The notes: generated from the sequence alone by a model not told the origin. A stretch of 44,866 bases of DNA from a virus (IMGVR_UViG_2579778842_000011:1-44866); one strand, 5' to 3'. Positions 1 to 18,069 are shown, numbered from the stretch's first letter. A program made the numbers and translations.

Positions 1-672
1 ACGGTCCGGGATGATGCCGGCAGCCTGGGCGGATACCTGAATCTGACACACACGTCCTCCGGCCTGTGGGCTGACATTGTGGCACAGGGAACCCGCCACA
101 GCATGAAAGCGTCATCGGACAATAACGACTTCCGCGCCCGGGGCTGGGGCTGGCTGGGCTCACTGGAAACCGGTCTGCCCTTCAGTATCACTGACAACCT
201 GATGCTGGAGCCACAACTGCAGTACACCTGGCAGGGGCTCTCCCTGGATGACGGCCAGGATAACGCCGGTTATGTGAAGTTCGGGCATGGCAGTACACAA
301 CATGTGCGTGCCGGCTTCCGTCTGGGCAGCCACAACGATATGACCTTTGGCAAAGGCACCTCATCCCGTGACACTCTGCGCGACAGTACAAAACACGGTG
401 TGAGTGAACTGCCTGTGAACTGGTGGGTACAGCCTTCTGTTATCCGCACCTTCAGCTCCCGGGGAGACTTGAGCATGGGGACAGCCGCCGCCGGCAGTAA
501 CATGACGTTCTCACCGTCCCGGAATGGCACGTCACTGGACCTGCAGGCCGGACTGGAAGCCCGTGTCCGGGAAAATATCACCCTGGGCGTTCAGGCCGGT
601 TATGCCCACAGCGTCAGCGGCAGCAGCGCTGAAGGTTATAACGGTCAGGCCACGCTGAATGTGACTTTCTGA
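1..672 (+). CDS. flu: Autotransporter adhesin (antigen 43-like), C-terminal beta-barrel translocator domain; 5' end lies outside the window
   Basis: Frame is open from base 1 into the 79..672 track ORF; ends ...[12 protein letters not shown] with terminal aromatic residue typical of autotransporter beta-domains; followed by a hairpin terminator. Confidence 0.7.
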
Positions 673-693
673 TAATCAGGTCACACCCCTTCA

Positions 694-722
694 GGCCCCG
701 GTCATCATGACCGGGGCCTTTT
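694..722 (+). terminator. Rho-independent terminator after the autotransporter gene
   Basis: GGCCCCGG..CCGGGGCC inverted repeat followed by TTTT. Confidence 0.6.
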
Positions 723-742
723 ACTTACAGGGAGCAACAGAT

Positions 743-976
743 ATGCCGGGTTGTACATCACGTTTATTGCCCGAAGGCCCTTTCTCACGCAACCAGGCTC
801 TTGCCGTCACAACGGCTTACCTTAATGTGCTTATTGAAGATGACCAGGGAACGCATTTCCGGCTGGTGATCCGCAACGCTGAAGGCCAGTTGCGCTGGCG
901 GTGCTGGAATTTTGAACCTGATGCCGGAAAACAGCTAAATCCGTATCTCGCCAGTGAGGGAATTCTCAGGCAATAA
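743..976 (+). CDS. DUF905-like small protein (YkfF-like) of CP4-type islands
   Basis: Internal ATG at 743 preceded by GGAG at 8 nt; motif [17 protein letters not shown]...HFRLV...WNFEPDAG resembles recalled YkfF family. Confidence 0.55.
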
Positions 977-999
977 ACGTCATTCACTTGATCCATCAG

Positions 1000-1030
1000 G
1001 CCGCGTCTTCTCCGGAAGACGCGGCTTTTT
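1000..1030 (+). terminator. Rho-independent terminator
   Basis: GCCGCGTCTTC-TCCG-GAAGACGCGGC stem-loop followed by TTTTT. Confidence 0.7.
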
Positions 1031-1066
1031 CATTTATACCGCTTAATCATTCATAAGGAGCCAATT

Positions 1067-1885
1067 ATGCGATTAGCCAGCCGTTTTGGTTATGTAAATC
1101 AGATCCGCCGGGAGCGCCCGCTGACACGCGAAGAACTGATGTACCACGTCCCGAGTATTTTTGCGGAAGACCGGCACACCTCCCGCAGTGAACGGTATGC
1201 GTACATTCCCACCATCACCGTCCTGGAAAATCTGCAGCGGGAAGGCTTTCAGCCGTTCTTCGCCTGCCAGACCCGTGTGCGCGACCAGAGCCGCCGGGAA
1301 TATACCAAACATATGCTGCGTCTGCGACGGGCCGGACAGATAACCGGTCAGCATGTGCCTGAAATTATTCTGCTCAACTCCCATGACGGTTCATCCAGCT
1401 ACCAGATGTTACCCGGATATTTTCGTGCCATCTGCACCAATGGCCTGGTCTGCGGTCAGTCGCTGGGAGAAGTCCGGGTGCCACACCGGGGAAACGTGGT
1501 GGACAGTGTGATTGAAGGTGCTTACGAGGTGGTGGGGGTTTTTGACCGGATTGAAGAAAAGCGTGACGCCATGCAGTCGCTGGTCCTGCCGCCACCGTCA
1601 CGCCAGGCGCTGGCACAGGCGGCACTGACTTACCGTTATGGTGACGAACATCAGCCCGTCACCACCGCCGACATTCTGACGCCACGACGCCGGGAGGATT
1701 ACGGTAAGGACCTGTGGAGTGCTTATCAGACCATCCAGGAGAATATGCTGAAAGGCGGGATTTCCGGTCGCAGTGCCAGAGGAAAACGTATCCATACCCG
1801 TGCCATTCACAGCATCGACACGGACATTAAGCTCAATCGCGCATTGTGGGTGATGGCAGAAACACTGCTGAAGAGTATGCGCTGA
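1067..1885 (+). CDS. DUF932-like protein (YfjQ-like) of CP4-type islands
   Basis: 272 aa ORF with AAGGAG RBS; N-terminus MRLASRFGYVNQIRRERPLTREEL matches recalled YfjQ-like family. Confidence 0.55.
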   Translation: MRLASRFGYVNQIRRERPLTREELMYHVPSIFAEDRHTSRSERYAYIPTITVLENLQREGFQPFFACQTRVRDQSRREYTKHMLRLRRAGQITGQHVPEIILLNSHDGSSSYQMLPGYFRAICTNGLVCGQSLGEVRVPHRGNVVDSVIEGAYEVVGVFDRIEEKRDAMQSLVLPPPSRQALAQAALTYRYGDEHQPVTTADILTPRRREDYGKDLWSAYQTIQENMLKGGISGRSARGKRIHTRAIHSIDTDIKLNRALWVMAETLLKSMR

Positions 1886-1975
1886 TGCCTTTTCCCTGAA
1901 AGCGCAGTTCTGACTCATGTCCGTCCCTGCCCCGCGACTTCTTCCATTCATTTACTTTTTATAAGGAATAATCTC

Positions 1976-2461
1976 ATGACAACCGTTTTGCATAATTCCA
2001 CCACACCTTCTGTTTCCGTAACCGCTGTATCAGAGAATAACCCGCCTCAACTGGTTGCCACCCTCGTCCCTGATGAACAGCGCATCAGCTTCTGGCCGCA
2101 GCATTTTGGCCTCATTCCACAGTGGGTGACCCTGGAGCCCCGTGTCTTCGGCTGGATGGATCGTCTGTGCGAAGACTACTGCGGTGGTATCTGGAATCTG
2201 TACACCCTGAACAACGGCGGGGCATTTATGGCACCCGAACCGGATGACGATGATGACGAAACATGGGTACTGTTCAGTACCATGAACGGTAACCGCGCTG
2301 AAATGAGCCCGGAAGCCGCCGGCATTGCTGCCTGTCTGATGACGTACAGCCATCATGCCTGTCGTACGGAGTGTTATGCCATGACGGTCCATTATTACCG
2401 GCTGCGGGATTACGCCCTGCAGCATCCGGAATGCAACGCCATTATGCGCATCATTGACTGA
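1976..2461 (+). CDS. Antirestriction protein (ArdB/KlcA family, YfjX/YafX-like)
   Basis: 161 aa; acidic DDDDDE stretch and conserved C-terminal half typical of CP4-island antirestriction proteins; AAGGA RBS. Confidence 0.7.
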   Translation: MTTVLHNSTTPSVSVTAVSENNPPQLVATLVPDEQRISFWPQHFGLIPQWVTLEPRVFGWMDRLCEDYCGGIWNLYTLNNGGAFMAPEPDDDDDETWVLFSTMNGNRAEMSPEAAGIAACLMTYSHHACRTECYAMTVHYYRLRDYALQHPECNAIMRIID

Positions 2462-2475
2462 AAGGGGCCGGAACA

Positions 2476-2952
2476 ATGCAACAGCTTTCCTTTCTGCCCG
2501 GAGAGATGACGCCCGGCGAGCGCAGCCTCATTCAGCGGGCCCTGAAAACCCTGGACCGCCATCTTCATGAACCCGGCGTGGCCTTCACCTCCACGCATGC
2601 GGCACGGGAGTGGCTGATTCTGAACATGGCGGGACTGGAGCGGGAAGAGTTCCGGGTGCTGTATCTGAACAACCAGAATCAGCTGATTGCCGGTGAAACC
2701 CTCTTCACCGGCACCATCAACCGCACGGAAGTCCATCCCCGGGAAGTGATTAAACGTGCCCTGTACCACAATGCCGCCGCCGTGATACTGGCACACAACC
2801 ACCCGTCCGGTGAAGTCACACCCAGCAAGGCAGACCGCCTTATCACGGAACGTCTGGTACAGGCACTGGGCCTGGTGGATATCCGGGTGCCGGACCATCT
2901 GATAGTCGGTGGCAGCCAGGTTTTCTCCTTTGCGGAACACGGCCTGCTTTAA
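2476..2952 (+). CDS. RadC-like JAB/MPN domain protein (YeeS/YfjY/YkfG-like)
   Basis: 158 aa; JAMM-type motif HNHPSG...S..D present. Confidence 0.85.
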   Translation: MQQLSFLPGEMTPGERSLIQRALKTLDRHLHEPGVAFTSTHAAREWLILNMAGLEREEFRVLYLNNQNQLIAGETLFTGTINRTEVHPREVIKRALYHNAAAVILAHNHPSGEVTPSKADRLITERLVQALGLVDIRVPDHLIVGGSQVFSFAEHGLL

Positions 2953-3020
2953 CCCGTCACCGTCACAACCACATCACACCTGTTTTCACTTTTATCTTCT
3001 GTCTTCAGAGGTATCCCATT

Positions 3021-3242
3021 ATGAAAATCATCACCCGTGGTGAAGCCATGCGTATTCACCAACAGCATCCTGCATCCCGTCTTTTTCCGTTCTGTACCGG
3101 CAAATACCGCTGGCACGGCAGCACTGAAACGTATACCGGTCGTGAAGTGCAGGATATTCCCGGTGTGCTGGCCGTGTTTGCTGAACGCCGTAAGGACAGT
3201 TTTGGCCCGTATGTCCGGCTGATGAGCGTCACTCTGAACTGA
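3021..3242 (+). CDS. DUF987 protein (YeeT-like)
   Basis: 73 aa; near-identical by eye to recalled YeeT (MKIITRGEAMRIHQQHP...YVRLMSVTLN). Confidence 0.8.
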   Translation: MKIITRGEAMRIHQQHPASRLFPFCTGKYRWHGSTETYTGREVQDIPGVLAVFAERRKDSFGPYVRLMSVTLN

Positions 3243-3260
3243 GTCAGTAAGGGCATTCTG

Positions 3261-3905
3261 ATGAGCAGAATTATCACCACCACCGTGTATACACTGCATG
3301 AGCTATCCTCCACCGCACAGGAAAAAGCCCGCGACTGGTACCGTCAGCATCATGCTGACAGCAACTGGTATGAAAACGTGTATGAAGACTTCAGGGAGGT
3401 CTGTGGCATTTTCGGAATTGACCTCCGCCAGCGCGTTTTCCGGCTCAGCAACGGCAGGTTTATGGAAGAGCCGTGCATCTGGTTCAGCGGATTCTGCGGC
3501 CAGGGAGACGGAGCCTGTTTTGAAGGACGCTGGCACTGGCAGCCAGCGGCACCCCGGAAAATCAGGGAATATGCCCCGCAGAACCGTGAGCTTCATCGTA
3601 TCTCGGATGCCCTGCAGGTGGTGCAGAAACGTAACTTCTGGCAACTGCAGACTGAAATCCACCACCGGGGACGCGACTGCCATCCGTACAGCATGGATAT
3701 CACGGTTACCCGGAACAGTCCGACTGGTCAGGCTATGACAACCGATGCGGAAGCCGCAGTCAGCGAAGCCCTGCGCGACCTGGCCTTCTGGTTGTACCGT
3801 CAACTGGAAAACGAGTACGACTGGCTGACCTCAGACGCCGCTGTGGATGAGGCCCTTCTCATCAACGAATACACCTTCACCGAAGCCGGTCTGCGCGCCG
3901 GCTGA
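3261..3905 (+). CDS. Hypothetical protein (island accessory gene)
   Basis: 214 aa ORF in same orientation between DUF987 and the antitoxin; no recognisable motif. Confidence 0.4.
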   Translation: MSRIITTTVYTLHELSSTAQEKARDWYRQHHADSNWYENVYEDFREVCGIFGIDLRQRVFRLSNGRFMEEPCIWFSGFCGQGDGACFEGRWHWQPAAPRKIREYAPQNRELHRISDALQVVQKRNFWQLQTEIHHRGRDCHPYSMDITVTRNSPTGQAMTTDAEAAVSEALRDLAFWLYRQLENEYDWLTSDAAVDEALLINEYTFTEAGLRAG

Positions 3906-3954
3906 CTCGTCATCGTTAAACTATCATTCACCGATTTTCTGTAAGGATTTTATC

Positions 3955-4323
3955 GTGTCAGACTCACTCCATGAAACAAATTATCCCGACGATAACAACG
4001 ACCGCCCCTGGTGGGGGCTACCCTGCACCGTGACGCCCTGTTTTGGGGCACGTCTGGTGCAGGAGGGTAACCGGTTGCATTACCTTGCCGACCGTGCCGG
4101 TATCAGAGGCCGGTTCAGCGACGCGGATGCGTACCACCTGGACCAGGCCCTTCCGCTGCTGATGAAACAACTGGAGCTCATGCTCACCAGCGGTGAACTG
4201 AATCCCCGCCATCAGCATACCGTCACGCTGTATGCCAGAGGGCTGACCTGCAAAGCCGATACCCTCAGCAGTTGTGGTTACGTTTATCTGGCTGTTTATC
4301 CGACGCCCAAAATGAAAAATTAA
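3955..4323 (+). CDS. Type IV antitoxin, CbeA/YeeU/YfjZ/YafW family
   Basis: GTG start at 3955 after AAGGA; ...DRPWWGLPCTVTPCFGARLVQEGNRLHYLADRAGI...VYLAVYPTP matches recalled YeeU; immediately upstream of the toxin gene. Confidence 0.85.
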   Translation: MSDSLHETNYPDDNNDRPWWGLPCTVTPCFGARLVQEGNRLHYLADRAGIRGRFSDADAYHLDQALPLLMKQLELMLTSGELNPRHQHTVTLYARGLTCKADTLSSCGYVYLAVYPTPKMKN

Positions 4324-4411
4324 CTCTCCAGAATAGCCTTCTGCTACGGCCTGGTGTTTTCACCACGCCACTTTCCCATTTTTATATCTGCATATCAGGA
4401 AAATCTTCAGT

Positions 4412-4789
4412 ATGAAAACATTACCTGTATTACCCGGGCAGGCGGCCAGTTCTCGCCCGTCTCCTGTTGAAATCTGGCAGATACTGCTGTCCCGACTGCT
4501 GGACCAGCACTACGGCCTCACACTGAATGACACACCGTTTGCCGATGAACGTGTGATTGAGCAGCATATTGAAGCTGGCATTTCACTGTGTGATGCGGTG
4601 AACTTTCTCGTGGAAAAATACGCACTGGTGCGTACCGACCAGCCGGGATTCAGCGCCTGTACCCACTCTCAGTTAATAAACAGCATCGATATCCTCCGGG
4701 CCCGCCGGGCGACAGGCCTGATGACCCGCGACAATTACAGAACGGTAAATAACATTACCTTGGGTAAACATCCGGGGGCGAAACAATGA
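4412..4789 (+). CDS. Type IV toxin, CbtA/YeeV/YkfI/YpjF family (cytoskeleton-targeting)
   Basis: 125 aa; MKTLPVLPGQAASSRPSPVEIWQILLSRLLDQHYGLTLNDTPF... essentially as recalled for YeeV. Confidence 0.85.
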   Translation: MKTLPVLPGQAASSRPSPVEIWQILLSRLLDQHYGLTLNDTPFADERVIEQHIEAGISLCDAVNFLVEKYALVRTDQPGFSACTHSQLINSIDILRARRATGLMTRDNYRTVNNITLGKHPGAKQ

Positions 4790-5274
4790 AACTGGCCCTG
4801 ACGCTGGAAGCCGACAGCATTAACGTGCAGGCACTGAACATGGGGCGAATTGTCGCTGACGTCGATGGTGTTAATCTCACTGAACTGATTAACAAGGTCG
4901 CTGAAAACGGTTATTCACTCCGCGTGGTGGAGGAATCCGACCAACAGTCAACCTGCACACTACCACCGTTTGCAACCCTTGCCGGCATACGCTGCAGTAC
5001 CGCACATATCACGGAAAAGGATAACGCCTGGCTGTACTCGCTGTCACACCAGACCAGTGACTTCGGTGAATCAGAATGGATTCATTTCACAGGTAGCGGA
5101 TATCTGTTACGTACCGATGCGTGGTCATATCCGGTTCTGCGGCTCAAGCGCCTGGGGCTGTCAAAAACGTTCCGTCGTCTGGTTGTCACACTCATCCAAC
5201 GTTATGGCGTCAGTCTCATTCATCTGGATGCCAGCGCTGAATGTCTGCCGGACCTGCCCACTTTCGACTGGTAA
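4786..5274 (+). CDS. YeeW-like protein
   Basis: 162 aa ORF whose ATGA start overlaps the toxin stop, as in yeeV-yeeW arrangements. Confidence 0.55.
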   Translation: MKLALTLEADSINVQALNMGRIVADVDGVNLTELINKVAENGYSLRVVEESDQQSTCTLPPFATLAGIRCSTAHITEKDNAWLYSLSHQTSDFGESEWIHFTGSGYLLRTDAWSYPVLRLKRLGLSKTFRRLVVTLIQRYGVSLIHLDASAECLPDLPTFDW

Positions 5275-5285
5275 CCAGGAACAAC

Positions 5286-5483
5286 ATGAAATCATTAACC
5301 ACGGAAACCGCACTGGATATTCTGATTGCGTGGCTACAGGACAATATCGACTGCGAATCGGGAATTATCTTTGACAACGATGAGGATAAAACGGATTCGG
5401 CAGCACTGCTGCCCTGCATTGAACAGGCCAGGGAGGATATCCGTACCCTGCGCCAGTTGCAGTTTCTGCAACAGAACCAGTGA
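5286..5483 (+). CDS. Small hypothetical protein (DUF957-like?)
   Basis: ATG at 5286 preceded by CAGGA; 65 aa; position after yeeW-like gene. Confidence 0.4.
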   Translation: MKSLTTETALDILIAWLQDNIDCESGIIFDNDEDKTDSAALLPCIEQAREDIRTLRQLQFLQQNQ

Positions 5484-5567
5484 GTCTTACTCACCAGACT
5501 TCATTCCACTGACGCCAGCCTGAACAGGGCTGGCGTTTTCATTTATCTGCAAAAAGGAATATCGATT

Positions 5568-6410
5568 ATGTCTGATATCACAGCCTCCCGTCCGGAAGTG
5601 GTCAACGGGCATACGGACGTTATCTGCTCAACCAGTATCCGCCACATTCTGACTGTACGAAAGAGTACGCTGCTGCAAATCGACACACTTATCCGGCAAC
5701 TGGCTGAAATCTCAGCAATGACAGAAAGTATTGGCGGTAAAACCGCACTGGACTGGGCGATGAAACAGGATTTTCGCTGTGGCTGCTGGCTGATGGAAAA
5801 ACCGGAAGCAGCAATGAAAGCCATCACCCGCAATCTCGATCGAGAAATCTGGCGTGACCTGATGCAACGTTCCGGGATGCTGTCATTAATGGATGCGCAG
5901 GCCCGTGATACATGGTACCGGTCACTGGAGTACGATAATTTTCCGGAAATCAGCGAAGCGAACATCCTGAGCACATTTGAACAACTGCACCAGAATAAGG
6001 ATGAGGTGTTTGAGCGAGGGGTGATCAACGTCTTCAGAGGGTTGAGCTGGAATTACAAAACCAACTCCCCCTGTAAATTTGGTAATAAAATTATCGTCAA
6101 CAATCTGGTGAGATGGGACCGGTGGGGATTTCATCTGAACAGCGGGCAACAGGCAGATCGACTTGCCGACCTGGAAAGAATGCTGCACCTGTTCAGCGGC
6201 AAACCAATCCCCGACAACCGGGGAAACATCACCCTTCGTCTGGATGATCACATTCAGTCTGTTCAGGGTAAAGAGAGCTATGAAGATGAGATGTTCAGCA
6301 TCAGATACTTTAAGAAGGGCTCCGCACACATCACGTTCAGGAAACCAGAACTGGTTGACAGACTGAATGATATTATCGCAAAACACTATCCTGACATGCT
6401 GGCAGTATAG
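5568..6410 (+). CDS. Hypothetical protein, last gene of the island before serX
   Basis: 280 aa ORF with AAGGA RBS; no recognisable catalytic motif. Confidence 0.45.
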   Translation: MSDITASRPEVVNGHTDVICSTSIRHILTVRKSTLLQIDTLIRQLAEISAMTESIGGKTALDWAMKQDFRCGCWLMEKPEAAMKAITRNLDREIWRDLMQRSGMLSLMDAQARDTWYRSLEYDNFPEISEANILSTFEQLHQNKDEVFERGVINVFRGLSWNYKTNSPCKFGNKIIVNNLVRWDRWGFHLNSGQQADRLADLERMLHLFSGKPIPDNRGNITLRLDDHIQSVQGKESYEDEMFSIRYFKKGSAHITFRKPELVDRLNDIIAKHYPDMLAV

Positions 6411-6518
6411 CTTTGCCAGTATGCTCAAAGATCGGAAATTGTCCGATAAGATATGATCGCGGGGCATATAAACCGGTTTCAGATGGCATACCCGATGGCA
6501 TACTGTCCGGAAGGATAA

Positions 6519-6554
6519 ATAAAAAAGCGCATGTTAAACAATAACATGCGCTTA
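6519..6554 (-). terminator. Rho-independent terminator downstream of tRNA-Ser
   Basis: On minus strand AAGCGCATGTT..AACATGCGCTT hairpin followed by TTTTTT. Confidence 0.7.
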
Positions 6555-6559
6555 TAATC

Positions 6560-6647
6560 TGGCGGTGAGGGGGGGATTCGAACCCCCGATACGTTGCCGT
6601 ATACACACTTTCCAGGCGTGCTCCTTCAGCCACTCGGACACCTCACC
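6560..6647 (-). tRNA. serX: tRNA-Ser (anticodon GGA)
   Basis: Reverse complement reads GGTGAGGTGTCCGAGTGG...CCTGGAAAG...GGTTCGAATCCCCCCCTCACCGCCA: 88 nt, long variable arm, GGA anticodon loop, CCA end; adjacent to ghrA as at the serX locus. Confidence 0.9.
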
Positions 6648-6841
6648 AAATTGTCGTTCCTGTCTTGCTGGAACGGGCGCTAATTTAGGGAAATCATGAC
6701 CTGAGGTCAACAAACTTTTTTAAAAAATCGCGCGTTTATTCAAACTTCAATCAATATGCAGTTTTAATAAGCGAAATCTGCTTTTTTTGCCACCGACCAC
6801 GGATTTGTTATGCTGGTGGCTTTTGTAGATCATAACGATAA

Positions 6842-7819
<978 letters not shown>

Positions 7820-7858
7820 TAAAGCATCAGGATTCCTGCTATCCTTGGCGGGAATTGA

Positions 7859-8299
<441 letters not shown>

Positions 8300-8350
8300 C
8301 TAAAATTTTTATTCATCGAATCGTTTGATTGATTAGTGAGCGGTTGAACG

Positions 8351-8405
8351 AAAAAAGATGAAAAAACTTCGAAAAAATTTCAAAAAAGACTTGACAAAAT
8401 CAAAA
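8351..8405. repeat. Phased A-tract array (predicted intrinsically bent DNA)
   Basis: A6 tracts at 8351, 8361, 8372, 8382 plus A4 tracts at 8395 and 8402, i.e. about 10-11 bp periodicity. Confidence 0.6.
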
Positions 8406-8642
8406 GGTACTGTTCCACGGGTGAAATAAAGGGAGTTTTCGGCACCCCGGTTTTTGATGTGCGTGTGAGATTTCAAAACAGGTGCAGTGCAGCCCACCAG
8501 CGCGGTCGCTACGCGACTATTAACACCCGCTAATCCCTTTCCCCGCCTCGATCTTTCCCTTCGTTATAAAGCGTTTTAGGCGCTCTCCTGAATGCGCAGA
8601 TCAGATAAATAATTTTACGCAAATTTAATGGAGGATAACCGG

Positions 8643-9197
8643 ATGAAAGAAGAATTAACCCTTACAGAAATTTCCCGCTTATACGGCTATACAATTAACG
8701 CCGCTAAGAAATGGCAAGAACGAGGAATGCCATTTAACACCAATACCCGCCGCGTACCAGCCAAAGAGGGGACCGAGTGGGTATTAAAAAATATCATCAA
8801 CCCGCTTAAAGAAACTACTGTCAAAGAACAAATCGACGTAGAAAAATTACGCCGTGAGAGAGCATTAGCGGATGCAGCCGAACGAGAGAACCAGGAAGCA
8901 ATGAATCTCCTGATTCCCGTCGGTTATGTAGAACAGCAACTAGCGGAATATTGCGGGAAAGTGAAGCAGACTATTTTGCAGATCGCCACAATCGACGCTT
9001 TAGAAATTCTCGAATCTGCCACTGACCAGAAAACATTAAAGAATAAGCTAAGGGAGATTATCGAGCGTCGTTTAAATGAAGTAGGGGACTTGTTCGAAAA
9101 TGCAGATTTGGGAGAAGACGAGGAAGAAGAATTACCATTAATGGATGAACCGGAAGAACAAGAACCAGAAGAAGACGATGAATTTGATGTGTCTTAA
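8643..9197 (+). CDS. Nu1-like winged-helix DNA-binding protein (terminase small subunit or recombination directionality factor candidate)
   Basis: ATG 8643 with GGAGG RBS; LTLTEISRLYGYTINAAKKWQERGMPF and EKLRRERALADAA resemble recalled lambda Nu1 N-terminus; acidic C-terminal tail. Confidence 0.45.
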   Translation: MKEELTLTEISRLYGYTINAAKKWQERGMPFNTNTRRVPAKEGTEWVLKNIINPLKETTVKEQIDVEKLRRERALADAAERENQEAMNLLIPVGYVEQQLAEYCGKVKQTILQIATIDALEILESATDQKTLKNKLREIIERRLNEVGDLFENADLGEDEEEELPLMDEPEEQEPEEDDEFDVS

Positions 9198-9203
9198 AAC
9201 GCG

Positions 9204-9220
9204 TTATAAATAATAGTGAG
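9204..9220 (+). promoter_or_regulatory. Recurrent 17-mer TTATAAATAATAGTGAG (copy 1), putative promoter -10/operator element
   Basis: Same motif recurs at 11159-11175 (minus), 12437-12453 and as a variant at 41018-41036, each 35-90 nt upstream of a gene start. Confidence 0.4.
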
Positions 9221-9246
9221 AAAGATGTTGAACGGGTCAACGTCTA

Positions 9247-9275
9247 CGGGGGAGAACATCCCCCGCTTAACTTTT
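9247..9275 (+). terminator. Hairpin, possible weak terminator/attenuator
   Basis: CGGGGGA-GAACA-TCCCCCG stem-loop followed by CTTAACTTTT. Confidence 0.3.
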
Positions 9276-9291
9276 AAGAGGATATAAAACT

Positions 9292-9576
9292 ATGGCTACT
9301 TTTATTACCTATGCTGTCACCATTACTATTCTGGCTGCTATCTCTGCTTATAAACTCGGAACCGAACCGAAAGAACGAGGCGAATTATTCTTAGGTGCGT
9401 TTGTTGCATTTGCTAGCCTTGCGTTAATTGTCGAAGGAATTTCTTATATTGTTGGCCTAGTTAGTATGACACTTTTTAACTTCCATCCAACTATTGCTAT
9501 GCATTTGATGCTGACCGTACTTTGGGTATATTGCTTAATCGAATTTTTAACGTTTGTTTTCAAACAGACTAAATAA
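9292..9576 (+). CDS. Small membrane protein (three predicted hydrophobic helices)
   Basis: 94 aa; AGAGGA RBS 9 nt upstream; three hydrophobic segments. Confidence 0.5.
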   Translation: MATFITYAVTITILAAISAYKLGTEPKERGELFLGAFVAFASLALIVEGISYIVGLVSMTLFNFHPTIAMHLMLTVLWVYCLIEFLTFVFKQTK

Positions 9577-9840
9577 TATTGTAATCTGCCTTTTCTCCTT
9601 ATGTGGTTTTAACAGGGAGCTTTCGAAAGAGAGTTCCCGATTAAAAGCCATAAAACACATTCAGTACAGTGTTTTCATAGTCAGTGATCTATACAACATA
9701 AAAACATAACAAGTATAGATTGAGTATTAATCCTCCCGCCTCGAAAGGGGCGGTTATTTTTCTGGCTTTACTGGATAATGTAGCATTATGTTCATTATAA
9801 ATCCTCATCTTTGTTGTGCAAACCTAACCTAAACTTACTA

Positions 9841-9865
9841 GGGACTCTTCGGAGTCCCTTTTTTT
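9841..9865. terminator. Bidirectional rho-independent terminator between convergent transcription units
   Basis: GGGACTC-TTCG-GAGTCCC followed by T7 on plus strand; overlaps the stop codon of the minus-strand 313 aa gene. Confidence 0.7.
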
Positions 9866-10805
9866 ATTGGCAGTAAGAAAAGTTAGTACCGTACATTTCA
9901 TCATGAAGCATTGCAGCATTGCGTTTCTGTTCTTCTTCCTCATCTTCTACATCACTAGAAAAATGAGATTTGCCCTTAAAAGAACGAAGTAATTGCAGTG
10001 CAGCCATCGGATCACGCATCACATCGATTTTCACTTCTACTTCATCATTTGCGGCCTCATCAGCCGCGTTTTCAACTACTGCCACCGGAGCAACTTCTTT
10101 AGCTTTCAGTTCTTCAATCTCAGCTTTCTGTGCTTCGATGATCTGGTCTTTTTCTTTCAGTGCAGCTTTCAGTTCTGCGATCTGTGCTTCCAGTGCAGCA
10201 AAGCGATCTTCAACAACCGGAGAAACAGCATTCACCTGTGCTTCCAGTTCCAGAAATGCTTCGCAAGATTCAATACGTTCTTTCTCTTCACCTTCATAAG
10301 CAACCAGTTCTACAACTTCTTTTTCGGTAGCGTGGCTGTTAAAGAATACAGCAAAGTAAGGATTGCCGGATTTAGTGAAGTTCAGTTTAGCTTTTCCGGT
10401 AACTTCTTTACGACGACCAAAGGTGATCTGGCAATCAGCGGTATCCTGAAAATCCATGTTAGGAGCGGAAACGATAGCAGTATCACCAGCAATAACCAGG
10501 TGGAACAGTTCAGAAGAGTTCTTAACGGTAAAGGTAACGATGTGGTCTACTGCAACGTCTTTAGCAGGTTTAACGCGGTCGATTGCTTTACGAATGCCGT
10601 TAGGCAGTTTACCGTCAACACCAAAGCCAGCCGCGATCAGTGCTTCACGATGTGCTTTAAAGCCAGCGAAAGCGGATTTCTGCTGCGCAAAGGAAACATG
10701 AGCAACAACTTTCGGCTGAATCTTCTTGTTTGCTTCGGTGCCAAATTTGATAACTGCTTTAGCGTTGGTTACTTCGTTAGTGAAAAAGTTAGCGGAAAAT
10801 AACAT
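9864..10805 (-). CDS. Hypothetical protein with central coiled coil and acidic C-terminal tail
   Basis: 313 aa; strong AGGAG RBS; heptad-like EAQIAELKAALKEKDQIIEAQKAEIEELKAK segment; C-terminal DVEDEEEEQ. Confidence 0.5.
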   Translation of the reverse strand: MLFSANFFTNEVTNAKAVIKFGTEANKKIQPKVVAHVSFAQQKSAFAGFKAHREALIAAGFGVDGKLPNGIRKAIDRVKPAKDVAVDHIVTFTVKNSSELFHLVIAGDTAIVSAPNMDFQDTADCQITFGRRKEVTGKAKLNFTKSGNPYFAVFFNSHATEKEVVELVAYEGEEKERIESCEAFLELEAQVNAVSPVVEDRFAALEAQIAELKAALKEKDQIIEAQKAEIEELKAKEVAPVAVVENAADEAANDEVEVKIDVMRDPMAALQLLRSFKGKSHFSSDVEDEEEEQKRNAAMLHDEMYGTNFSYCQ

Positions 10806-10854
10806 ATAAATACTCCTGAATACTCTGTGTTAGTTTTAATGTTTCATATCAAAA

Positions 10855-10890
10855 GCCTCCTTGCGCCAACAGGGAGGCTTTTTTATTTTT
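10855..10890. terminator. Hairpin terminator between the two minus-strand genes
   Basis: GCCTCCTTG..CAGGGAGGC stem followed by TTTTTTATTTTT on plus strand, A-run on the other side. Confidence 0.5.
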
Positions 10891-10922
10891 AAAGCCATCA
10901 TATAATTCTCAGTGAAAGGTTA

Positions 10923-11105
10923 TTACCAGACCTCGGCGGTAATCTTTACTTTAATGTCATACTTCTTTAAGAGTTTGTGAAAGGTTGATTGATCAATACC
11001 TTCACCTTTAAACCATTCACCCATCACTACATCAGGTGTCAGTTCAAAATAACGCTTTGCCATTTCTAAAACGATTTCACGAGTGAACTTAACAGGTCGT
11101 GCCAT
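10923..11105 (-). CDS. Small DNA-binding protein with resolvase/Hin-type HTH-like motif
   Basis: 60 aa; AGGAGG RBS; RPVKFTRE...GIDQSTFHKLLKKYDIK pattern; paralogous to 14641..14865. Confidence 0.45.
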   Translation of the reverse strand: MARPVKFTREIVLEMAKRYFELTPDVVMGEWFKGEGIDQSTFHKLLKKYDIKVKITAEVW

Positions 11106-11158
11106 CTTGAATCCTCCTAAATCTGGATTAATGATTTCTTAAAAAAGAGCGTCAACCG

Positions 11159-11175
11159 CTCACTATTATTTATAT
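11159..11175 (-). promoter_or_regulatory. Recurrent 17-mer (copy 2, ATATAAATAATAGTGAG on minus strand) upstream of the 60-aa gene
   Basis: Followed by AGTGAGCGGTTGACG, which also occurs at 8335-8350 near the prophage junction. Confidence 0.4.
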
Positions 11176-11622
11176 GGGGATTGTATTTTATTTTTCAACC
11201 CCTCACATTTATCTCTTATATATGTATTTATAACAGAGATATGTTAAAATGTTATTCAGATGTTATCAGACGTGTTAAATGTGTTAAACCGCAGCACGAA
11301 TTGCTAAAGCGGAGAGCACGAATTAACCAAATTGATGTATATTCAATCAATTTAGAAAAAGGCATAGCACTTTTTGCTAAAGCGGTGAGCATTAATTGAG
11401 CTATGAATTGTAAAGATTTGTTACAAGATTTTCTCTCAGATCCAAATCTTCACAAACATATAACAATTTAACAGAAGGATAACAAATGAAAGGAAATCGG
11501 TAAATTTTCACTTTCAATACAAATATTATACCACATTTTTCTCGAATTGTCAATTATAGCACCGATCCTACACAGTGTCAACAAAGGATTTTCAAACCTA
11601 CACTAGCCCTACACTATGAAAA

Positions 11623-11808
11623 TTGCCCCTGAATTTTTGCCCCTGAACCAAAATCCCCTAGATTCCACATCCAATTTTTGCCCCTGAAACCCACTATTTT
11701 TGCCCCTGAAATTCTGGGAAACAGTGATTTTGCCCCTCATTTTTGCCCCTGAAATGCCAATAATTGCCCCTGAAAATCTAATTTTTGCCCCTGAAATTTG
11801 CCCCTGAA
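11623..11808 (+). repeat. Iteron-like array: 9 direct copies of TTGCCCCTGAA (8 exact, 1 variant)
   Basis: Copies at 11623, 11637, 11678, 11700, 11730 (variant TTGCCCCTCAT), 11743, 11764, 11785, 11798; all same orientation, irregular 13-41 bp spacing, within a 1.4 kb region lacking ORFs of 60 aa or more. Confidence 0.75.
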
Positions 11809-12436
11809 AAGGATTTGTGAGAAAAACTCTTTATAAAACATTAACTTAGTGAGTGGCAAAACGGGGAATCGGGCGTGCATAGATATTATATAACACATTC
11901 GCTACGCTCATGTGTAAAACCAAAAACAACAAATAACCAAAAAGATATTAGGAGGGCGTAGCCCGACTGCGCGAAGCGCTAACCAATTACTTCTAGTAAC
12001 ACTAATTTAAACTAGATGATACTAGATGGTCTTAGAAGGAATTAACTAGTTTGCTCGCTCGCTTCGCTCACTCTCAAACGTCTGCGACGCCACTGCGTGG
12101 CATCGAGAATCACTTCTGAAAGGATTTTCTTGAAAGGGATTTTAAACTAGTTACTAACTGATTCTAGAAAGATAGTAATAATCACTTTGAAGATAATAGT
12201 AGTTAACTGGTTACTAGATGATTCTAGATCACTTTAATGATCATGAAAGGTATTGGTATCCCTTCGGGATTGCAACCTTCGGTTGCTAAATTGCTTCCTG
12301 ATTATAATTTCTCCAAAAGAAAGATTCTTATATTCTAAAGATACTTCTTCGTTTTGATGATGATTTAATCAAAATCTATGAAGGAGGCGAAGCCGACTGA
12401 ATACCAATTCCTTTCAAATTAGACAAAAATTTCTCG

Positions 12437-12453
12437 TTATAAATAATAGTGAA
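12437..12453 (+). promoter_or_regulatory. Recurrent 17-mer (copy 3, TTATAAATAATAGTGAA) about 35 nt upstream of gene 12489
   Basis: Sequence identity to copies 1 and 2. Confidence 0.4.
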
Positions 12454-12488
12454 CTTACTTTGATTCACTTTTTTAGAGGATTTCCACT

Positions 12489-12941
12489 ATGATCAATACT
12501 AAAACTCCTTTCATTCTTCTGGGTCTGAACCATGATGATAATCTGGCTATGATGCATGTTTTCGCTAATCGTGGTTATAACATCATTCGTCATTCCGAAG
12601 ACTCCAATTTCTCAACTGCTTTCTATGCTCTTAAACGTAATGGTCGCCCTACGGTGATCGTAGACTGCTTTACTGATGAAGGTCGTGAACAATACAACAA
12701 CATTCCGGCAATTATTGTTCGTGATGACCTGCCGTTTGATGTTCGTGAATATGACGTTGATTTAGGCTCTTACTATGGGATCGCCGATCTTGACCAGATT
12801 ATGGCTGATTATGGTAAACAACCCGCTCAGGAAGCCCCAGAACGAGATGAACAAGACGAAGATGACGACGACTACACACCAATCTGTTTCTCTTCTCACG
12901 GTGGCTTCTACGGTTACGATGAAGGCTTAGATATGCTGTAA
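12489..12941 (+). CDS. Hypothetical acidic early protein
   Basis: 150 aa; AGAGGA RBS; C-terminal ERDEQDEDDDDY acidic run. Confidence 0.5.
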   Translation: MINTKTPFILLGLNHDDNLAMMHVFANRGYNIIRHSEDSNFSTAFYALKRNGRPTVIVDCFTDEGREQYNNIPAIIVRDDLPFDVREYDVDLGSYYGIADLDQIMADYGKQPAQEAPERDEQDEDDDDYTPICFSSHGGFYGYDEGLDML

Positions 12942-12963
12942 TTTAGGTCAACCCTTTGGCGTC

Positions 12964-13005
12964 TTGTCAAGGGGTATTGACAAAAATTTCTGACTTTTTT
13001 ATGAT
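12964..13005 (+). promoter_or_regulatory. Candidate sigma70 promoter with overlapping inverted repeat (operator-like)
   Basis: TTGACA 12977-12982, 17 bp spacer, TATGAT 13000-13005; inverted repeat TTGTCAA(12964)/TTGACAA(12977) overlaps the -35. Confidence 0.45.
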
Positions 13006-13061
13006 TATCTCACTTGACAATTTTGAACCTATTTGACCTAGATTTGTAAAGAGGATGTAAC

Positions 13062-13394
13062 ATGAAAGAATTTACCATCACTAAATCCCTGTATGACTGG
13101 ACTGTTAAAATCTCCGGCAAAACCGTTTCTGTAACCCCTAGCCATGTAGAAAATGATTGGGGCGTATCCCGTGAAACTATCTCCCGTAGTATGCATGTTC
13201 CGTTTGATCTGATGTCCTTAACTGGTATTCATGCAATGCTGGAAGTTCGCGAACAATTCGAAGCTGGTAATCACAATGCGACTCCAGTTAGCAATCACCT
13301 TCTTACTAATGAAGAACGTGAAATCATCGAAAACTGGCGTTATGAATATGCGATTCCTTATTATGAAGAAGACCAAGTAGAAATCGATTGGTAA
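13062..13394 (+). CDS. Hypothetical protein
   Basis: 110 aa; AGAGGA RBS. Confidence 0.5.
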   Translation: MKEFTITKSLYDWTVKISGKTVSVTPSHVENDWGVSRETISRSMHVPFDLMSLTGIHAMLEVREQFEAGNHNATPVSNHLLTNEEREIIENWRYEYAIPYYEEDQVEIDW

Positions 13395-13493
13395 TAAATT
13401 TCTATCATAAATAAAAATGTTCCGCGCGCCGTTGGCGTGTGGACAGTTAAAAACAGGAGGATCATCACTAAACCGTTTAAGGGGAATTTAATT

Positions 13494-14324
13494 ATGAATA
13501 CTGTTACTGCTATGAATACTGCTAAAACTGCTTCCGTGTCTCTGGTTGTTGATAACACCAAACCGCTGACCATGTCTTCCCGTCAGATCGCTGAATTTAC
13601 CGGAAAAGAACACCACAAAGTTAAAGTTGATATAACTAAGATGTTGAATGCTCTAGGTTATGAAGATCACGCGAAGTTTCGCGTCATCTATTTTGACCAA
13701 TACGGACGCGAACAAAACGAATATCAACTAGACGAAGAAATGACTCTGACTCTTGTCACTGGTTACGATGTTAAGCGTCGAATGGTTGTTATTCAGGAAT
13801 GGAAACGACTGAAAGAAGAAAATGAAAAACTGCGTTCTCAGCAAGTCAACCCATACGCAAACATGACTAAGCTCGATTGGATTCGTGAGGCAATGGAATT
13901 GGAAGCCGCAAACGAACAACTGATTCAAGAAAAGAAACAACTGGTTGAATTGCATGTTCGTAAAGCTATCGACACACACAGTCTTAGCCGCTTATTAGGC
14001 GAAAAACGAGGCTCTACGAAGGTACAAATTATTCTGAAAGGTTTATGTGCTGCTGGTGTTCTTGAGCGTCGTCTGGATGCTTCTGGTAAGCCTAAAGGCT
14101 ATGATCTGCTTCCTCCTGGCTATATGTTCGCTCGTATGTCGGCACACGGTCAGATCGAGTTCACTGCTGATGCTATCCCGCATCTCGTAAAACTCGGATT
14201 GCTCGAAGAAGAAAAGGCCGCAACTTTGAAATTGCCACAGCCGAATAACTCACGAGCAATCGTCAATAATACTGCTTTGCTGATTCGTCAGAATGCTGGA
14301 TCACTGGAACACTTCGGACTGTGA
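13494..14324 (+). CDS. Rha-family phage regulatory protein / antirepressor-like
   Basis: ATG 13494 after AAGGGG; N-terminal LTMSSRQIAEFTGKEHHKVKVDITKML resembles the Phage_pRha domain; the track start at 13437 is a GTG without RBS. Confidence 0.55.
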   Translation: MNTVTAMNTAKTASVSLVVDNTKPLTMSSRQIAEFTGKEHHKVKVDITKMLNALGYEDHAKFRVIYFDQYGREQNEYQLDEEMTLTLVTGYDVKRRMVVIQEWKRLKEENEKLRSQQVNPYANMTKLDWIREAMELEAANEQLIQEKKQLVELHVRKAIDTHSLSRLLGEKRGSTKVQIILKGLCAAGVLERRLDASGKPKGYDLLPPGYMFARMSAHGQIEFTADAIPHLVKLGLLEEEKAATLKLPQPNNSRAIVNNTALLIRQNAGSLEHFGL

Positions 14325-14332
14325 TAATTTTT

Positions 14333-14356
14333 GCCCCTGAATTTCAGGGGCTTTTT
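14333..14356 (+). terminator. Rho-independent terminator built from the iteron motif
   Basis: GCCCCTGAA-T-TTCAGGGGC perfect inverted repeat followed by TTTTT. Confidence 0.75.
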
Positions 14357-14395
14357 GTATCTGGAGTTTTTCGCCGAAAACCTGCAATACAGAAT

Positions 14396-14598
14396 TTCGA
14401 AAGAATCAATAGGTTAGAGATGAGCGCAGTTTTGCGCCGATTGATTCAAGTTTGAATTTCTCGAAAGAATCAACCACTTAGATAGATACGCTGAACTTTA
14501 AGCACATCCCCTCAGTTTTGAGGGCATCTATAGATCAGTCCAAATCTCTGGACTCATCGGAAGAATCAATGACTTATAGATGAGCGCAGTTTTGCGCG
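14396..14598. repeat. Three dispersed copies of an approximately 40-bp unit with embedded small hairpins
   Basis: Units start 14396, 14459, 14556 (TCGAAAGAATCAA...TTAGAGATGAGCGCAGTTTTGCGC); hairpins GCGCA-GTTTT-GCGC, CCCTCA-GTTT-TGAGGG, AGTCCA..TGGACT, ATTCAA-GT-TTGAAT. Confidence 0.6.
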
Positions 14599-14603
14599 GA
14601 TAT

Positions 14604-14633: not shown

Positions 14634-14640
14634 TAGAGAA

Positions 14641-14865: not shown

Positions 14866-14899
14866 AGTCATTTCTCCAAATTAAAGTGAATGTTCACCT

Positions 14900-18059: not shown

Positions 18060-18069
18060 GGGGTAAATC

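What the first reader, a model, noticed from the sequence alone, without database searches (positions are those of the whole stretch)
3955..4789. Intact CbeA/CbtA-type toxin-antitoxin pair and antirestriction module in an island abutting serX
A complete yeeU/yeeV-type pair with RadC-like, DUF987 and ArdB/KlcA-like genes, the standard distal module of CP4-type islands, ends about 150 bp from tRNA-Ser. The intervening 214-aa ORF (3261..3905) between DUF987 and the antitoxin is not part of the usual module as I recall it. Together with the prophage in ycdX, two mobile elements flank a very short core segment (serX-ghrA).
Basis: established knowledge. Interest (0 to 1): 0.3.

Follow-up and report, generated by a model that had tools for sequence, protein, structure and literature searches.

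The report
Ordinary serX island toxin-antitoxin module
This is a normal, intact copy of a gene block (anti-restriction genes plus the CbtA/CbeA toxin-antitoxin pair) that closes many E. coli genomic islands, and the "extra" 214-aa gene is a common, ancestral but uncharacterised part of that block that strain K-12 has lost.

Summary
cbeA (3955..4323, GTG start, 122 aa) and cbtA (4412..4789, 125 aa) are intact. They are 91% and 97.6% identical to the K-12 CP4-44 proteins, and CbtA keeps R15 and F65. They sit in one co-directional block: DUF905, DUF932, KlcA/ArdB-type Antirestrict, RadC, DUF987, ORF214, CbeA, CbtA, DUF5983, DUF957, DUF4942. The block ends 149 bp from the 3' end of serX. A prophage interrupts ycdX at 8277/8278, leaving a 1.7-kb core segment.

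ORF214 is present full length in 1943 of 5426 complete E. coli genomes. K-12 CP4-44 keeps its first 25 nt, and O104:H4-type copies keep its last 113 nt. So copies without it are deletion derivatives. Window 3708..8277 is 100% identical to E. coli UMNK88.

ORF214 itself (newer RefSeq name "DUF8835"; older name "antitoxin of toxin-antitoxin stability system") belongs to a large family found mostly on alphaproteobacterial conjugative elements. There it lies in a conserved ArdC / ParB_N / helicase block with no CbeA/CbtA nearby. Its AlphaFold model is confident (pLDDT 96.7) but matches nothing in the PDB. Its function is unknown; an establishment or anti-defence role is my inference. Overall: already known, low interest.

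The parts
1..672 (+). 3' end of an Ag43/Cah autotransporter gene; the gene runs off the left edge of the window
   Evidence: NCBIfam NF033177, profile positions 753-948 of 948, E 7e-139; Pfam Autotransporter beta-domain
743..976 (+). DUF905 gene. The longest ORF starts at 707; a start at 743 would give the 77-aa length annotated for the DUF905 gene in related islands (L009)
   Evidence: PF06006, E 2e-30; 64% identical to K-12 YkfF
1067..1885 (+). DUF932 gene (YfjQ/YafZ type)
   Evidence: PF06067, E 7e-49; 74% identical to YfjQ and YafZ
1976..2461 (+). Anti-restriction gene of the KlcA/ArdB family
   Evidence: PF03230, E 6e-37; 72-74% identical to K-12 YfjX(LfgA) and YafX
2476..2952 (+). RadC-like JAB metalloprotease gene (YeeS type)
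   Evidence: PF04002, E 5e-45; 98% identical to YeeS over 148 aa
3021..3242 (+). DUF987 gene (YeeT type)
   Evidence: PF06174, E 4e-39; 96% identical to YeeT
3261..3905 (+). ORF214: a 214-aa protein of a large uncharacterised family. Newer RefSeq annotation calls it 'DUF8835'; the older name is 'antitoxin of toxin-antitoxin stability system'. It is a standard, ancestral part of the module. A recombination breakpoint lies after 3707.
   Evidence: No Pfam or NCBIfam hit. phrog_5162, E 9e-33. Full length in 1943 of 5426 genomes. An identical protein, P0002, has 529 member sequences. 3508 clusters at 50% identity. AlphaFold pLDDT 96.7. No PDB fold match. dN/dS 0.23-0.33.
3955..4323 (+). cbeA/yeeU, the type IV antitoxin; 122 aa, GTG start
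   Evidence: PF06154, E 5e-52; 91% identical to K-12 CbeA over the full length; same GTG start as K-12
4412..4789 (+). cbtA/yeeV, the toxin that binds FtsZ and MreB; 125 aa
   Evidence: PF06755, E 8e-58, full profile; 97.6% identical to K-12 CbtA; R15 and F65 present (PMC5624674)
4786..5274 (+). DUF5983 gene, a full-length form of YeeW; overlaps the cbtA stop by 4 nt
   Evidence: PF25638 and PF19419
5286..5483 (+). DUF957 gene
   Evidence: 100% identical DNA in UMNK88, where it is annotated DUF957
5568..6410 (+). DUF4942 gene (methyltransferase-like); the last gene of the island
   Evidence: Annotated DUF4942 in the identical UMNK88 DNA. PHROG hits include a 'DNA methyltransferase' family, E 1e-18.
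6525..6553 (-). Intrinsic terminator hairpin plus T-run just downstream of serX. It is island DNA that replaces the K-12 sequence.
   Evidence: Terminator scan; alignment to K-12 diverges immediately 3' of the tRNA
6560..6647 (-). serX, tRNA-Ser(GGA). The island/core junction is at its 3' end (6559/6560).
   Evidence: ARAGORN; Rfam RF00005, 53.8 bits; K-12 alignment
6881..7819 (+). ghrA, a core gene
   Evidence: 99% identical to K-12; annotated ghrA in UMNK88 and K-12
7874..8277 (+). 5' part of ycdX, cut by prophage insertion at 8277/8278
   Evidence: Alignment to K-12 ycdX stops at 8277; prophage genes lie beyond

Best explanation
Window 1..6559 is the integrase-distal end of a tRNA-linked genomic island inserted at the 3' end of serX. 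It belongs to the same island kind as K-12 CP4-6/-44/-57, the Shigella SRL island and the tellurite/urease island of ETEC UMNK88.

It carries the usual terminal gene block. DUF932, KlcA/ArdB-type anti-restriction, RadC-like protease, DUF987, ORF214, CbeA, CbtA, DUF5983 and DUF957 are probably transcribed as one unit. DUF4942 follows.

How the pair works is known from K-12. CbtA binds FtsZ and MreB and blocks division and elongation. CbeA counteracts it at the level of the cytoskeletal targets (type IV).

The following steps are inferred:
- The pair favours retention of the island.
- The anti-restriction, methyltransferase-like and RadC genes are 'establishment' genes inherited from a transferable ancestor, comparable to the anti-defence islands in leading regions of conjugative plasmids.
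- ORF214 is an original member of this block that has been deleted repeatedly, including in K-12. Its family is a fixed component of transfer-associated blocks in alphaproteobacterial conjugative elements. Its most likely role is establishment or anti-defence after entry into a new host, not antitoxin activity. The mechanism is unknown. The conserved QGDG...H residues could mark an active or binding site.
For: Toxin and antitoxin:
- Near-identity to the K-12 toxin and antitoxin, with R15 and F65 retained.
- These two residues were shown to mediate MreB and FtsZ binding (PMC5624674).
- The K-12 homologous pairs are toxic and are neutralised without any ORF214 (PMC5371832; K-12 gene maps).

Island kind:
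- The junction lies exactly at the serX 3' end.
- The same island end is found at serX in UMNK88 (3708..8277 100% identical) and in PSS-08-2.
- In PSS-08-2 the island is about 45 kb. It has a tyrosine integrase next to ycdU and a 14-nt repeat, TGGCGGTGAGGGGG, of the tRNA 3' end.
- In CP4-6 the same module also abuts its tRNA, thrW.

ORF214 is standard and ancestral:
-.

ORF214 is a real, constrained protein:
- dN/dS 0.23-0.33.
- pLDDT 96.7.
- 3508 family clusters.

Transfer-element context for ORF214:
- In 80 loci from other species (79 of them alphaproteobacterial), its neighbours are a ParB_N-type large protein (65 loci), ArdC (49), DUF2958 (47) and an AAA_34/Sno-like helicase just downstream (73).
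- It lies next to NikA, a relaxase and a coupling protein in Tistrella.
- It lies near a PF03230 anti-restriction gene in Paracoccus.
- It is on 112 plasmids, 41 of them typed conjugative.

Other support:
- No strong + strand terminator-like site lies between 1067 and 5483.
- Leading-region anti-defence islands combine klcA, methyltransferases and TA systems (PMC11541004).
Against: - No integrase, direct repeat or transfer gene is visible in the window, so the island type rests on related genomes.
- No function of ORF214, DUF932, DUF987, DUF5983 or DUF957 has been tested. The anti-defence reading is guilt by association.
- Frequent loss of ORF214 shows it is dispensable for a resident island.
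- The terminator and promoter scans are weak evidence: promoter-like sites are not enriched.
- A stabilising role of chromosomal CbtA/CbeA copies has not been demonstrated.
Confidence: 0.85

Rival explanations
1. ORF214 is a third component of the CbeA/CbtA system, such as an accessory antitoxin, chaperone or regulator, as its older database name suggests.
For: - It lies immediately upstream of cbeA on the same strand in E. coli and Salmonella.
- Natural in-frame ORF214-CbeA fusions of 342-343 aa exist at two other chromosomal loci. They arise from TGA>TTA plus a 34-nt deletion.
- NCBI names it 'antitoxin of toxin-antitoxin stability system'.
Against: - It has no similarity to any antitoxin family in Pfam or NCBIfam.
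- Of 80 loci from other species, only the Escherichia one has CbeA/CbtA beside it.
- All three K-12 pairs work without it (PMC5371832).
- It has been deleted at least twice independently while the TA pair was kept.
- The fusion retains cbeA's own GTG and ribosome-binding site, so it need not be functional as a fusion.
- In alphaproteobacteria it sits beside an unrelated PIN/Phd pair. This adjacency is a possible source of the name; that link is my inference.
Confidence: 0.08
2. ORF214 is an unusual cargo insertion specific to this island.
For: It is absent from the three K-12 modules and from the published SRL island gene list (PMC6980539).
Against: - It is present full length in 36% of complete E. 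coli genomes.
- It occupies the same position in Salmonella.
- K-12 and O104:H4 carry opposite-end remnants of it.
- An identical protein is on record with 529 member sequences.
Confidence: 0.02
3. The block is an inert relic of a defunct element, kept only by hitch-hiking and gene conversion between paralogous copies, with no present function for host or island.
For: - There are many copies per genome (median 3 places, up to 15-20).
- The structure is mosaic, with a recombination breakpoint inside ORF214 at 3707/3708.
- Component genes are often deleted.
- K-12 copies lie in 'cryptic prophages'.
Against: - All eleven ORFs are intact here.
- ORF214 is under purifying selection.
- K-12 homologues have measurable phenotypes: toxicity, oxidative-stress and biofilm effects (PMC5371832) and LfgB protease activity (PMC10846083).
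Confidence: 0.2

Closest known systems
CbtA/CbeA (YeeV/YeeU) type IV toxin-antitoxin pair of cryptic prophage CP4-44, E. coli K-12
   Same: - Toxin 97.6% and antitoxin 91% identical, with the same lengths and gene order.
- Same GTG start for cbeA.
- R15 and F65 retained.
- Same flanking yeeS/yeeT and yeeW-type genes.
   Different: - Different chromosomal site: serX here, the yeeA-sbmC region in K-12.
- K-12 has lost about 633 bp of ORF214 and has a truncated YeeW (64 aa against 162 aa here), so K-12 is the degraded copy.
serX-linked islands: the tellurite/urease/iha island of ETEC UMNK88, the 45-kb island of strain PSS-08-2, and the SRL pathogenicity island of Shigella flexneri
   Same: - Same insertion site and the same terminal block: GTPase, Ag43, DUF932, anti-restriction, RadC, DUF987, (ORF214), YeeU, YeeV, DUF5983, DUF957, DUF4942.
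- UMNK88 is 100% identical over 3708..8277.
   Different: - Left of 3707 the window is only 84-97% identical to UMNK88.
- The window lacks the dynamin/RdcB/patatin genes that UMNK88 has between cah and DUF932.
- The SRL gene list has no ORF214.
- The island body and integrase of the window's own strain are outside the window.
CP4-6 at thrW (K-12)
   Same: The TA end of the module directly abuts the 3' end of the tRNA gene, so the orientation seen here has precedent.
   Different: - The pair is YkfI/YafW, 60-61% identical to the pair here.
- It has no ORF214, DUF5983, DUF957 or DUF4942.
Anti-defence islands in the leading regions of conjugative plasmids (Samuel et al. 2024, PMC11541004)
   Same: Co-directional arrays combining a klcA-type anti-restriction gene, methyltransferase-like genes, a TA system and many small genes of unknown function.
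   Different: - No oriT, relaxase, ssb or psiB is visible in the window.
- The element is a chromosomal island with (in relatives) a P4-type integrase.
- Early expression after transfer is not shown.
DUF8835 / 'antitoxin of toxin-antitoxin stability system' family (ORF214 relatives)
   Same: ORF214 is a full-length, typical member: 214 aa, 57-63% identical to alphaproteobacterial members, with the conserved E14, QGDG(81-84), H141, N202, F206 and G210.
   Different: - In alphaproteobacteria it is translationally coupled to a conserved 138-aa upstream gene (8-nt overlap in 74 of 76 loci; a relative of the 138-aa gene in 70 of 80 loci) and followed by a Sno-like helicase.
- In Escherichia and Salmonella it sits between DUF987 and CbeA.
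- The 138-aa partner is unrelated to DUF987.

Membership tests
CbtA/CbeA (YeeV/YeeU) type IV toxin-antitoxin system | Toxin with a complete CbtA_toxin domain | tested here: met
   PF06755, E 8e-58, profile positions 1-112 of 112; 97.6% identical to K-12 CbtA
CbtA/CbeA (YeeV/YeeU) type IV toxin-antitoxin system | CbeA_antitoxin-domain gene immediately upstream on the same strand | tested here: met
   PF06154, E 5e-52; 88-nt spacer; 91% identical to K-12 CbeA over 122 of 122 aa
CbtA/CbeA (YeeV/YeeU) type IV toxin-antitoxin system | Toxin residues needed for MreB (R15) and FtsZ (F65) binding | tested here: met
   Both residues are present in the translated sequence; their roles come from PMC5624674
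CbtA/CbeA (YeeV/YeeU) type IV toxin-antitoxin system | Toxicity of the toxin, and neutralisation by the antitoxin without toxin-antitoxin binding | not testable with these tools
   Needs expression and interaction experiments
tRNA-linked island with P4-type integrase (CP4-type) | Boundary at the 3' end of a tRNA gene | tested here: met
   Collinearity with K-12 starts at the serX 3' end, 6556-6560
tRNA-linked island with P4-type integrase (CP4-type) | Tyrosine integrase at one end | not testable with these tools
   It lies outside the window. In the related PSS-08-2 island a tyrosine recombinase lies next to ycdU, about 45 kb from serX.
tRNA-linked island with P4-type integrase (CP4-type) | Direct repeat of the tRNA 3' end at the far boundary | not testable with these tools
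   The window holds only the serX copy. PSS-08-2 has the 14-nt TGGCGGTGAGGGGG at its far junction.
tRNA-linked island with P4-type integrase (CP4-type) | Conserved terminal block DUF932 / anti-restriction / RadC / DUF987 / antitoxin / toxin | tested here: met
   compare the K-12 maps
KlcA/ArdB anti-restriction proteins (PF03230) | Antirestrict domain | tested here: met
   PF03230, E 6e-37, profile positions 1-92 of 92
KlcA/ArdB anti-restriction proteins (PF03230) | Inhibition of type I restriction | not testable with these tools
   Needs a restriction-alleviation assay
Antitoxin (the database name given to ORF214) | Sequence or fold similarity to a known antitoxin family | tested here: not met
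   No Pfam, NCBIfam or PDB sequence/profile hit. Best PDB fold match has E 0.25 and TM 0.23.
Antitoxin (the database name given to ORF214) | Conserved pairing with a toxin gene across the family | tested here: not met
   CbeA/CbtA lie next to it in 1 of 80 loci. The PIN/Phd seed pair was found in 2 of 80 by my seeds, and it is convergent.
DUF8835 family (ORF214) | Full-length homology to family members | tested here: met
   Identical protein P0002. Homologues of 214 aa at 57-63% identity with 100% coverage. RefSeq labels genes 92-99% identical in DNA 'DUF8835'. The Pfam model itself is not in the library copy at hand.

The most novel reading that the evidence does not exclude
ORF214 (DUF8835) would be a new kind of establishment or anti-defence factor of transferable elements, with a fold that has no solved relative. 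It is conserved from alphaproteobacterial conjugative elements to enterobacterial tRNA islands. It may have escaped study because all three K-12 copies of the module lack it; CP4-44 has demonstrably lost it by deletion. The conserved E14 / QGDG(81-84) / H141 residues would form an active or ligand-binding site.
Probability: 0.3. Interest if true: 0.5.

Novelty: already known. Interest (0 to 1): 0.15.

Why it matters
As stated, the finding matters little. It is a well-known, multi-copy island module at a well-known insertion site, and most of it is identical to a published genome.

Two by-products are mildly useful.
- The K-12 'canonical' module is a deletion derivative. K-12-based descriptions of CP4-type modules therefore omit a gene carried by about a third of E. 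coli genomes.
- That gene belongs to a very large, structurally unmatched family tied to conjugative-element blocks and carries a misleading 'antitoxin' name. It is a reasonable candidate for anti-defence screening.

Tried and rejected
- Pfam, NCBIfam, PDB sequence, PDB profile and PDB fold searches gave nothing for ORF214. BFVD returned only uncharacterised phage proteins.
- Longer family members (234-374 aa) were scanned for informative fused domains; none were found.
- I tested whether the conserved alphaproteobacterial upstream partner (138 aa) is a distant DUF987 or any other window protein. hhalign probability was 1.2% or less, so the idea was rejected.
- I searched the window for a second copy of the serX 3' end as an island repeat. 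Only serX itself was found.
- I considered that the 19-nt copy of the serX 3' end downstream of K-12 serX is an old island scar. It is more likely part of tandem RtT-like repeat units, since that stretch is annotated as RtT sRNA in PSS-08-2.
- Literature searches for 'DUF8835' and for the 'antitoxin of toxin-antitoxin stability system' name found no functional study.
- The search for related loci with the 116-sequence alignment failed. It was repeated with 13 sequences.
- The first local BLAST ran before the K-12 loci had been copied to the script machine and was repeated.
- ARAGORN's tRNA-Gln at 22242..22332 is not supported by Rfam.

Full report
**Observation**

The window is E. coli chromosome around serX-ghrA-ycdX.
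- ARAGORN and Rfam place tRNA-Ser(GGA) at 6560..6647 on the minus strand.
- Alignment with K-12 shows 99.1% identity from 6556 to 8277 only. That span covers serX, ghrA and the first 404 nt of ycdX.
- To the right of 8277 lies a tailed prophage with small and large terminase, portal, major head, tape measure and tail fibre genes and a large serine integrase at 42299..43993(-).
- To the left of 6560 lies island DNA.

On the + strand the island carries the following genes:

| Coordinates | Gene |
|---|---|
| 1..672 | end of an Ag43/Cah gene |
| 743..976 | DUF905 |
| 1067..1885 | DUF932 |
| 1976..2461 | PF03230 anti-restriction gene |
| 2476..2952 | RadC-like JAB gene |
| 3021..3242 | DUF987 |
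| 3261..3905 | the 214-aa ORF ("ORF214") |
| 3955..4323 | cbeA |
| 4412..4789 | cbtA |
| 4786..5274 | DUF5983 |
| 5286..5483 | DUF957 |
| 5568..6410 | DUF4942 |

The last stop codon is 149 bp from the tRNA. The coordinates given in the finding are exactly cbeA start to cbtA stop. All parts of the observation are confirmed.

**The toxin-antitoxin pair**

- CbtA is 97.6% identical to K-12 CbtA over 124 aa.
- CbeA is 91.0% identical to K-12 CbeA over all 122 aa, and it uses the same GTG start.
- The pair is therefore of the CP4-44 type. Identity to YpjF/YfjZ and YkfI/YafW is only 60-65%.
- CbtA retains R15 and F65. Substituting these residues abolishes MreB and FtsZ binding respectively, and the double substitution relieves toxicity (PMC5624674).
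- Nothing in the sequence suggests inactivation. Activity itself cannot be tested here.

**The 'extra' ORF is a standard island gene**

- The 2.1-kb stretch DUF987-ORF214-cbeA-cbtA is covered at 80% or more in 1803 of 5426 complete E. coli genomes.
- ORF214 alone is full length in 1943 genomes. Matching sequence occurs at up to 9 places per genome, almost always chromosomal.
- An identical protein is on record with 529 member sequences.
- Salmonella has the same order DUF987-ORF214-CbeA-CbtA-DUF5983-DUF4942.
- The three K-12 modules do lack it, and so does the published gene list of the Shigella SRL island at serX (PMC6980539).

Copies without it are deletion derivatives, and the remnants show this.
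- K-12 CP4-44 still has the first 25 nt of the ORF (ATGAGCAGAATTATC...), followed by a gap of about 633 bp ending just upstream of cbeA.
- About 1760 further genomes, for example O104:H4 2011C-3493, keep only the last 113 nt, joined directly to the DUF987 stop codon.
- These opposite-end remnants mean at least two independent deletions of an ancestral gene.

**Which island this is**

- Window 3708..8277 is 100% identical to ETEC strain UMNK88. Left of 3707 identity falls to 84-97%.
- The block is thus a mosaic of paralogous island copies, with a breakpoint inside ORF214.
- In UMNK88 this end belongs to a large island carrying urease, tellurite-resistance, iha and cah genes.
- In PSS-08-2, the best overall match at 95.4%, it closes a 45-kb island.
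- The far end of that island, next to ycdU, has a tyrosine integrase, a DUF3987 protein and an HTH gene. The far junction carries a 14-nt copy, TGGCGGTGAGGGGG, of the serX 3' end.
- The window's own integrase and repeat lie outside the window.
- Having the TA end of the module against the tRNA has a K-12 precedent in CP4-6 at thrW.
- The serX terminator hairpin (6553..6525, minus strand) is island-derived.

**What ORF214 is**

It is a real, constrained protein.
- dN/dS is 0.23-0.33 among Escherichia and Salmonella copies.
- The family has 3508 clusters at 50% identity by phmmer.
- A profile search found 6090 proteins among the 8000 scored candidates.
- Most members are almost exactly 214 aa and come from Rhizobiales, Rhodobacterales and Sphingomonadales.

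No library at hand explains it.
- It has no hit in the Pfam or NCBIfam copies at hand.
- Its only PHROG hits are families of unknown function, apart from one insignificant Ref-like endonuclease match at E 0.028.
- It has no PDB hit by sequence or profile.
- The AlphaFold model built on a 116-sequence alignment is very confident (pLDDT 96.7, pTM 0.89).
- Even so, its best PDB fold match has E 0.25 and TM 0.23.
- In BFVD it matches only uncharacterised phage proteins (E 7e-8, TM 0.59).
- Nearly invariant residues include E14, Q81-G82-D83-G84, H141, N202, F206 and G210.
- With pI 5.5 it is not a strongly acidic DNA mimic.
- Newer RefSeq annotation calls it a DUF8835 protein. The older name is 'antitoxin of toxin-antitoxin stability system'.

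**Context of ORF214 elsewhere**

I examined 80 loci from different species. 79 are alphaproteobacterial, and 406 species matched in total. The gene sits in a conserved co-directional block:

| Neighbour | Loci (of 80 unless stated) | Position |
|---|---|---|
| ArdC | 49 | upstream |
| DUF2958 | 47 | upstream |
| large ParB_N protein | 65 | upstream |
| conserved 138-aa gene | 70 | immediately upstream |
| upstream ORF whose stop overlaps the ORF214 start by 8 nt | 74 of 76 | immediately upstream |
| AAA_34/Strawberry-notch-like helicase | 73 | median 254 nt downstream |
| DUF736 | 40 | mostly downstream (39 of 40) |

- Individual loci place it next to NikA, a relaxase and a coupling protein, next to ArdC, and near a PF03230 anti-restriction gene.
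- It occurs on 112 PLSDB plasmids, 41 of them typed conjugative.
- CbeA/CbtA accompany it only in Escherichia and Salmonella.
- In some alphaproteobacterial loci an unrelated, convergent PIN/Phd pair lies beside it. This adjacency may be the origin of the 'antitoxin' name; that link is my inference.
- The 138-aa partner is unrelated to DUF987 or to any other window protein.

**Mechanism**

Shown for close homologues:
- CbtA binds FtsZ and MreB.
- CbeA-type antitoxins neutralise the toxin (PMC5624674, PMC5371832).
- A RadC-like paralogue, LfgB, is a protease (PMC10846083).

Inferred:
- Genes 1067..5483 form one transcription unit. There is no strong + strand terminator-like site inside that span, while hairpins lie at 998-1027 and 5511-5537.
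- The block is an establishment/anti-defence set inherited from a transferable ancestor. It resembles leading-region anti-defence islands that combine klcA, methyltransferases and TA systems (PMC11541004).
- The TA pair favours island retention.
- ORF214 is an establishment factor of unknown mechanism.

The alternative, that ORF214 is an accessory of the TA pair, has two points in its favour: adjacency, and natural ORF214-CbeA fusions at the cadC and gsp loci. The family-wide context, the K-12 pairs that work without it, and its repeated loss all argue against it.

**Verdict**

The finding describes a real but ordinary feature. It is a paralogous, intact copy of the CP4-type terminal module at serX, and most of it is identical to a published ETEC genome. 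The single point of possible novelty, the extra ORF, is a standard, ancestral and already catalogued (DUF8835) gene. The residual interest is that this widespread family has no known function and no solved structural relative.

Noticed in passing
window 8278..44866: A tailed prophage is inserted in ycdX at 8277/8278. It has a large serine recombinase at 42299..43993(-). The 3' part of ycdX is not in the window. Among the 12 best-matching complete genomes listed, only two (ETEC4090 and FDAARGOS_1267) cover the junction, so this insertion looks uncommon.
   Followed up: partly
window 3707/3708: There is a recombination breakpoint inside ORF214. DNA from 3708 to 8277 is 100% identical to UMNK88, while DNA to the left is 84-97% identical. 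The module is a mosaic of paralogous island copies.
   Followed up: yes
L009-L011 8001..9032 (E. coli islands next to cadC and next to gsp): Natural in-frame ORF214-CbeA fusion genes of 342-343 aa, created by TGA>TTA plus a 34-nt deletion of the spacer. The internal GTG and ribosome-binding site of cbeA are kept.
   Followed up: partly
L002 11052..11076 (K-12 CP4-44) and L020 1501..1613 (O104:H4): Opposite-end remnants of ORF214: the first 25 nt in K-12 and the last 113 nt in O104:H4-type copies. These show at least two independent deletions. About 1760 complete genomes carry only a partial remnant.
   Followed up: yes
L021-L100 (80 loci; 79 alphaproteobacterial, plus Escherichia ruysiae L021), around position 10001: In 70 of 80 loci ORF214 relatives are preceded by a conserved 138-aa gene of unknown function (MADYFTHFSCLLDVG...). 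In 74 of 76 loci the upstream ORF's stop overlaps the ORF214 start by 8 nt. In 73 of 80 loci a large AAA_34/Strawberry-notch-like helicase follows. This looks like a conserved gene pair or trio worth study in its own right.
   Followed up: partly
L012 about 2890..2915 (K-12) and L013 27150..27345 (PSS-08-2): Downstream of serX the core genome carries tandem repeat units that each contain a copy of the tRNA 3' end (TGGCGGTGAGGGGGGGATT). One stretch is annotated as RtT sRNA in PSS-08-2. The island's far junction in PSS-08-2 lies in one of these copies.
   Followed up: partly
window 22242..22332 (-): ARAGORN calls a 91-nt tRNA-Gln inside prophage ORF 22007..22477. Rfam finds no tRNA there at gathering score, so it is probably a false positive.
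   Followed up: partly
window 9864..10805 (-): A 313-aa ORF near the left end of the prophage, on the opposite strand to the structural genes, has no PHROG match at E 1e-5 or better. It may be a cargo gene.
   Followed up: no
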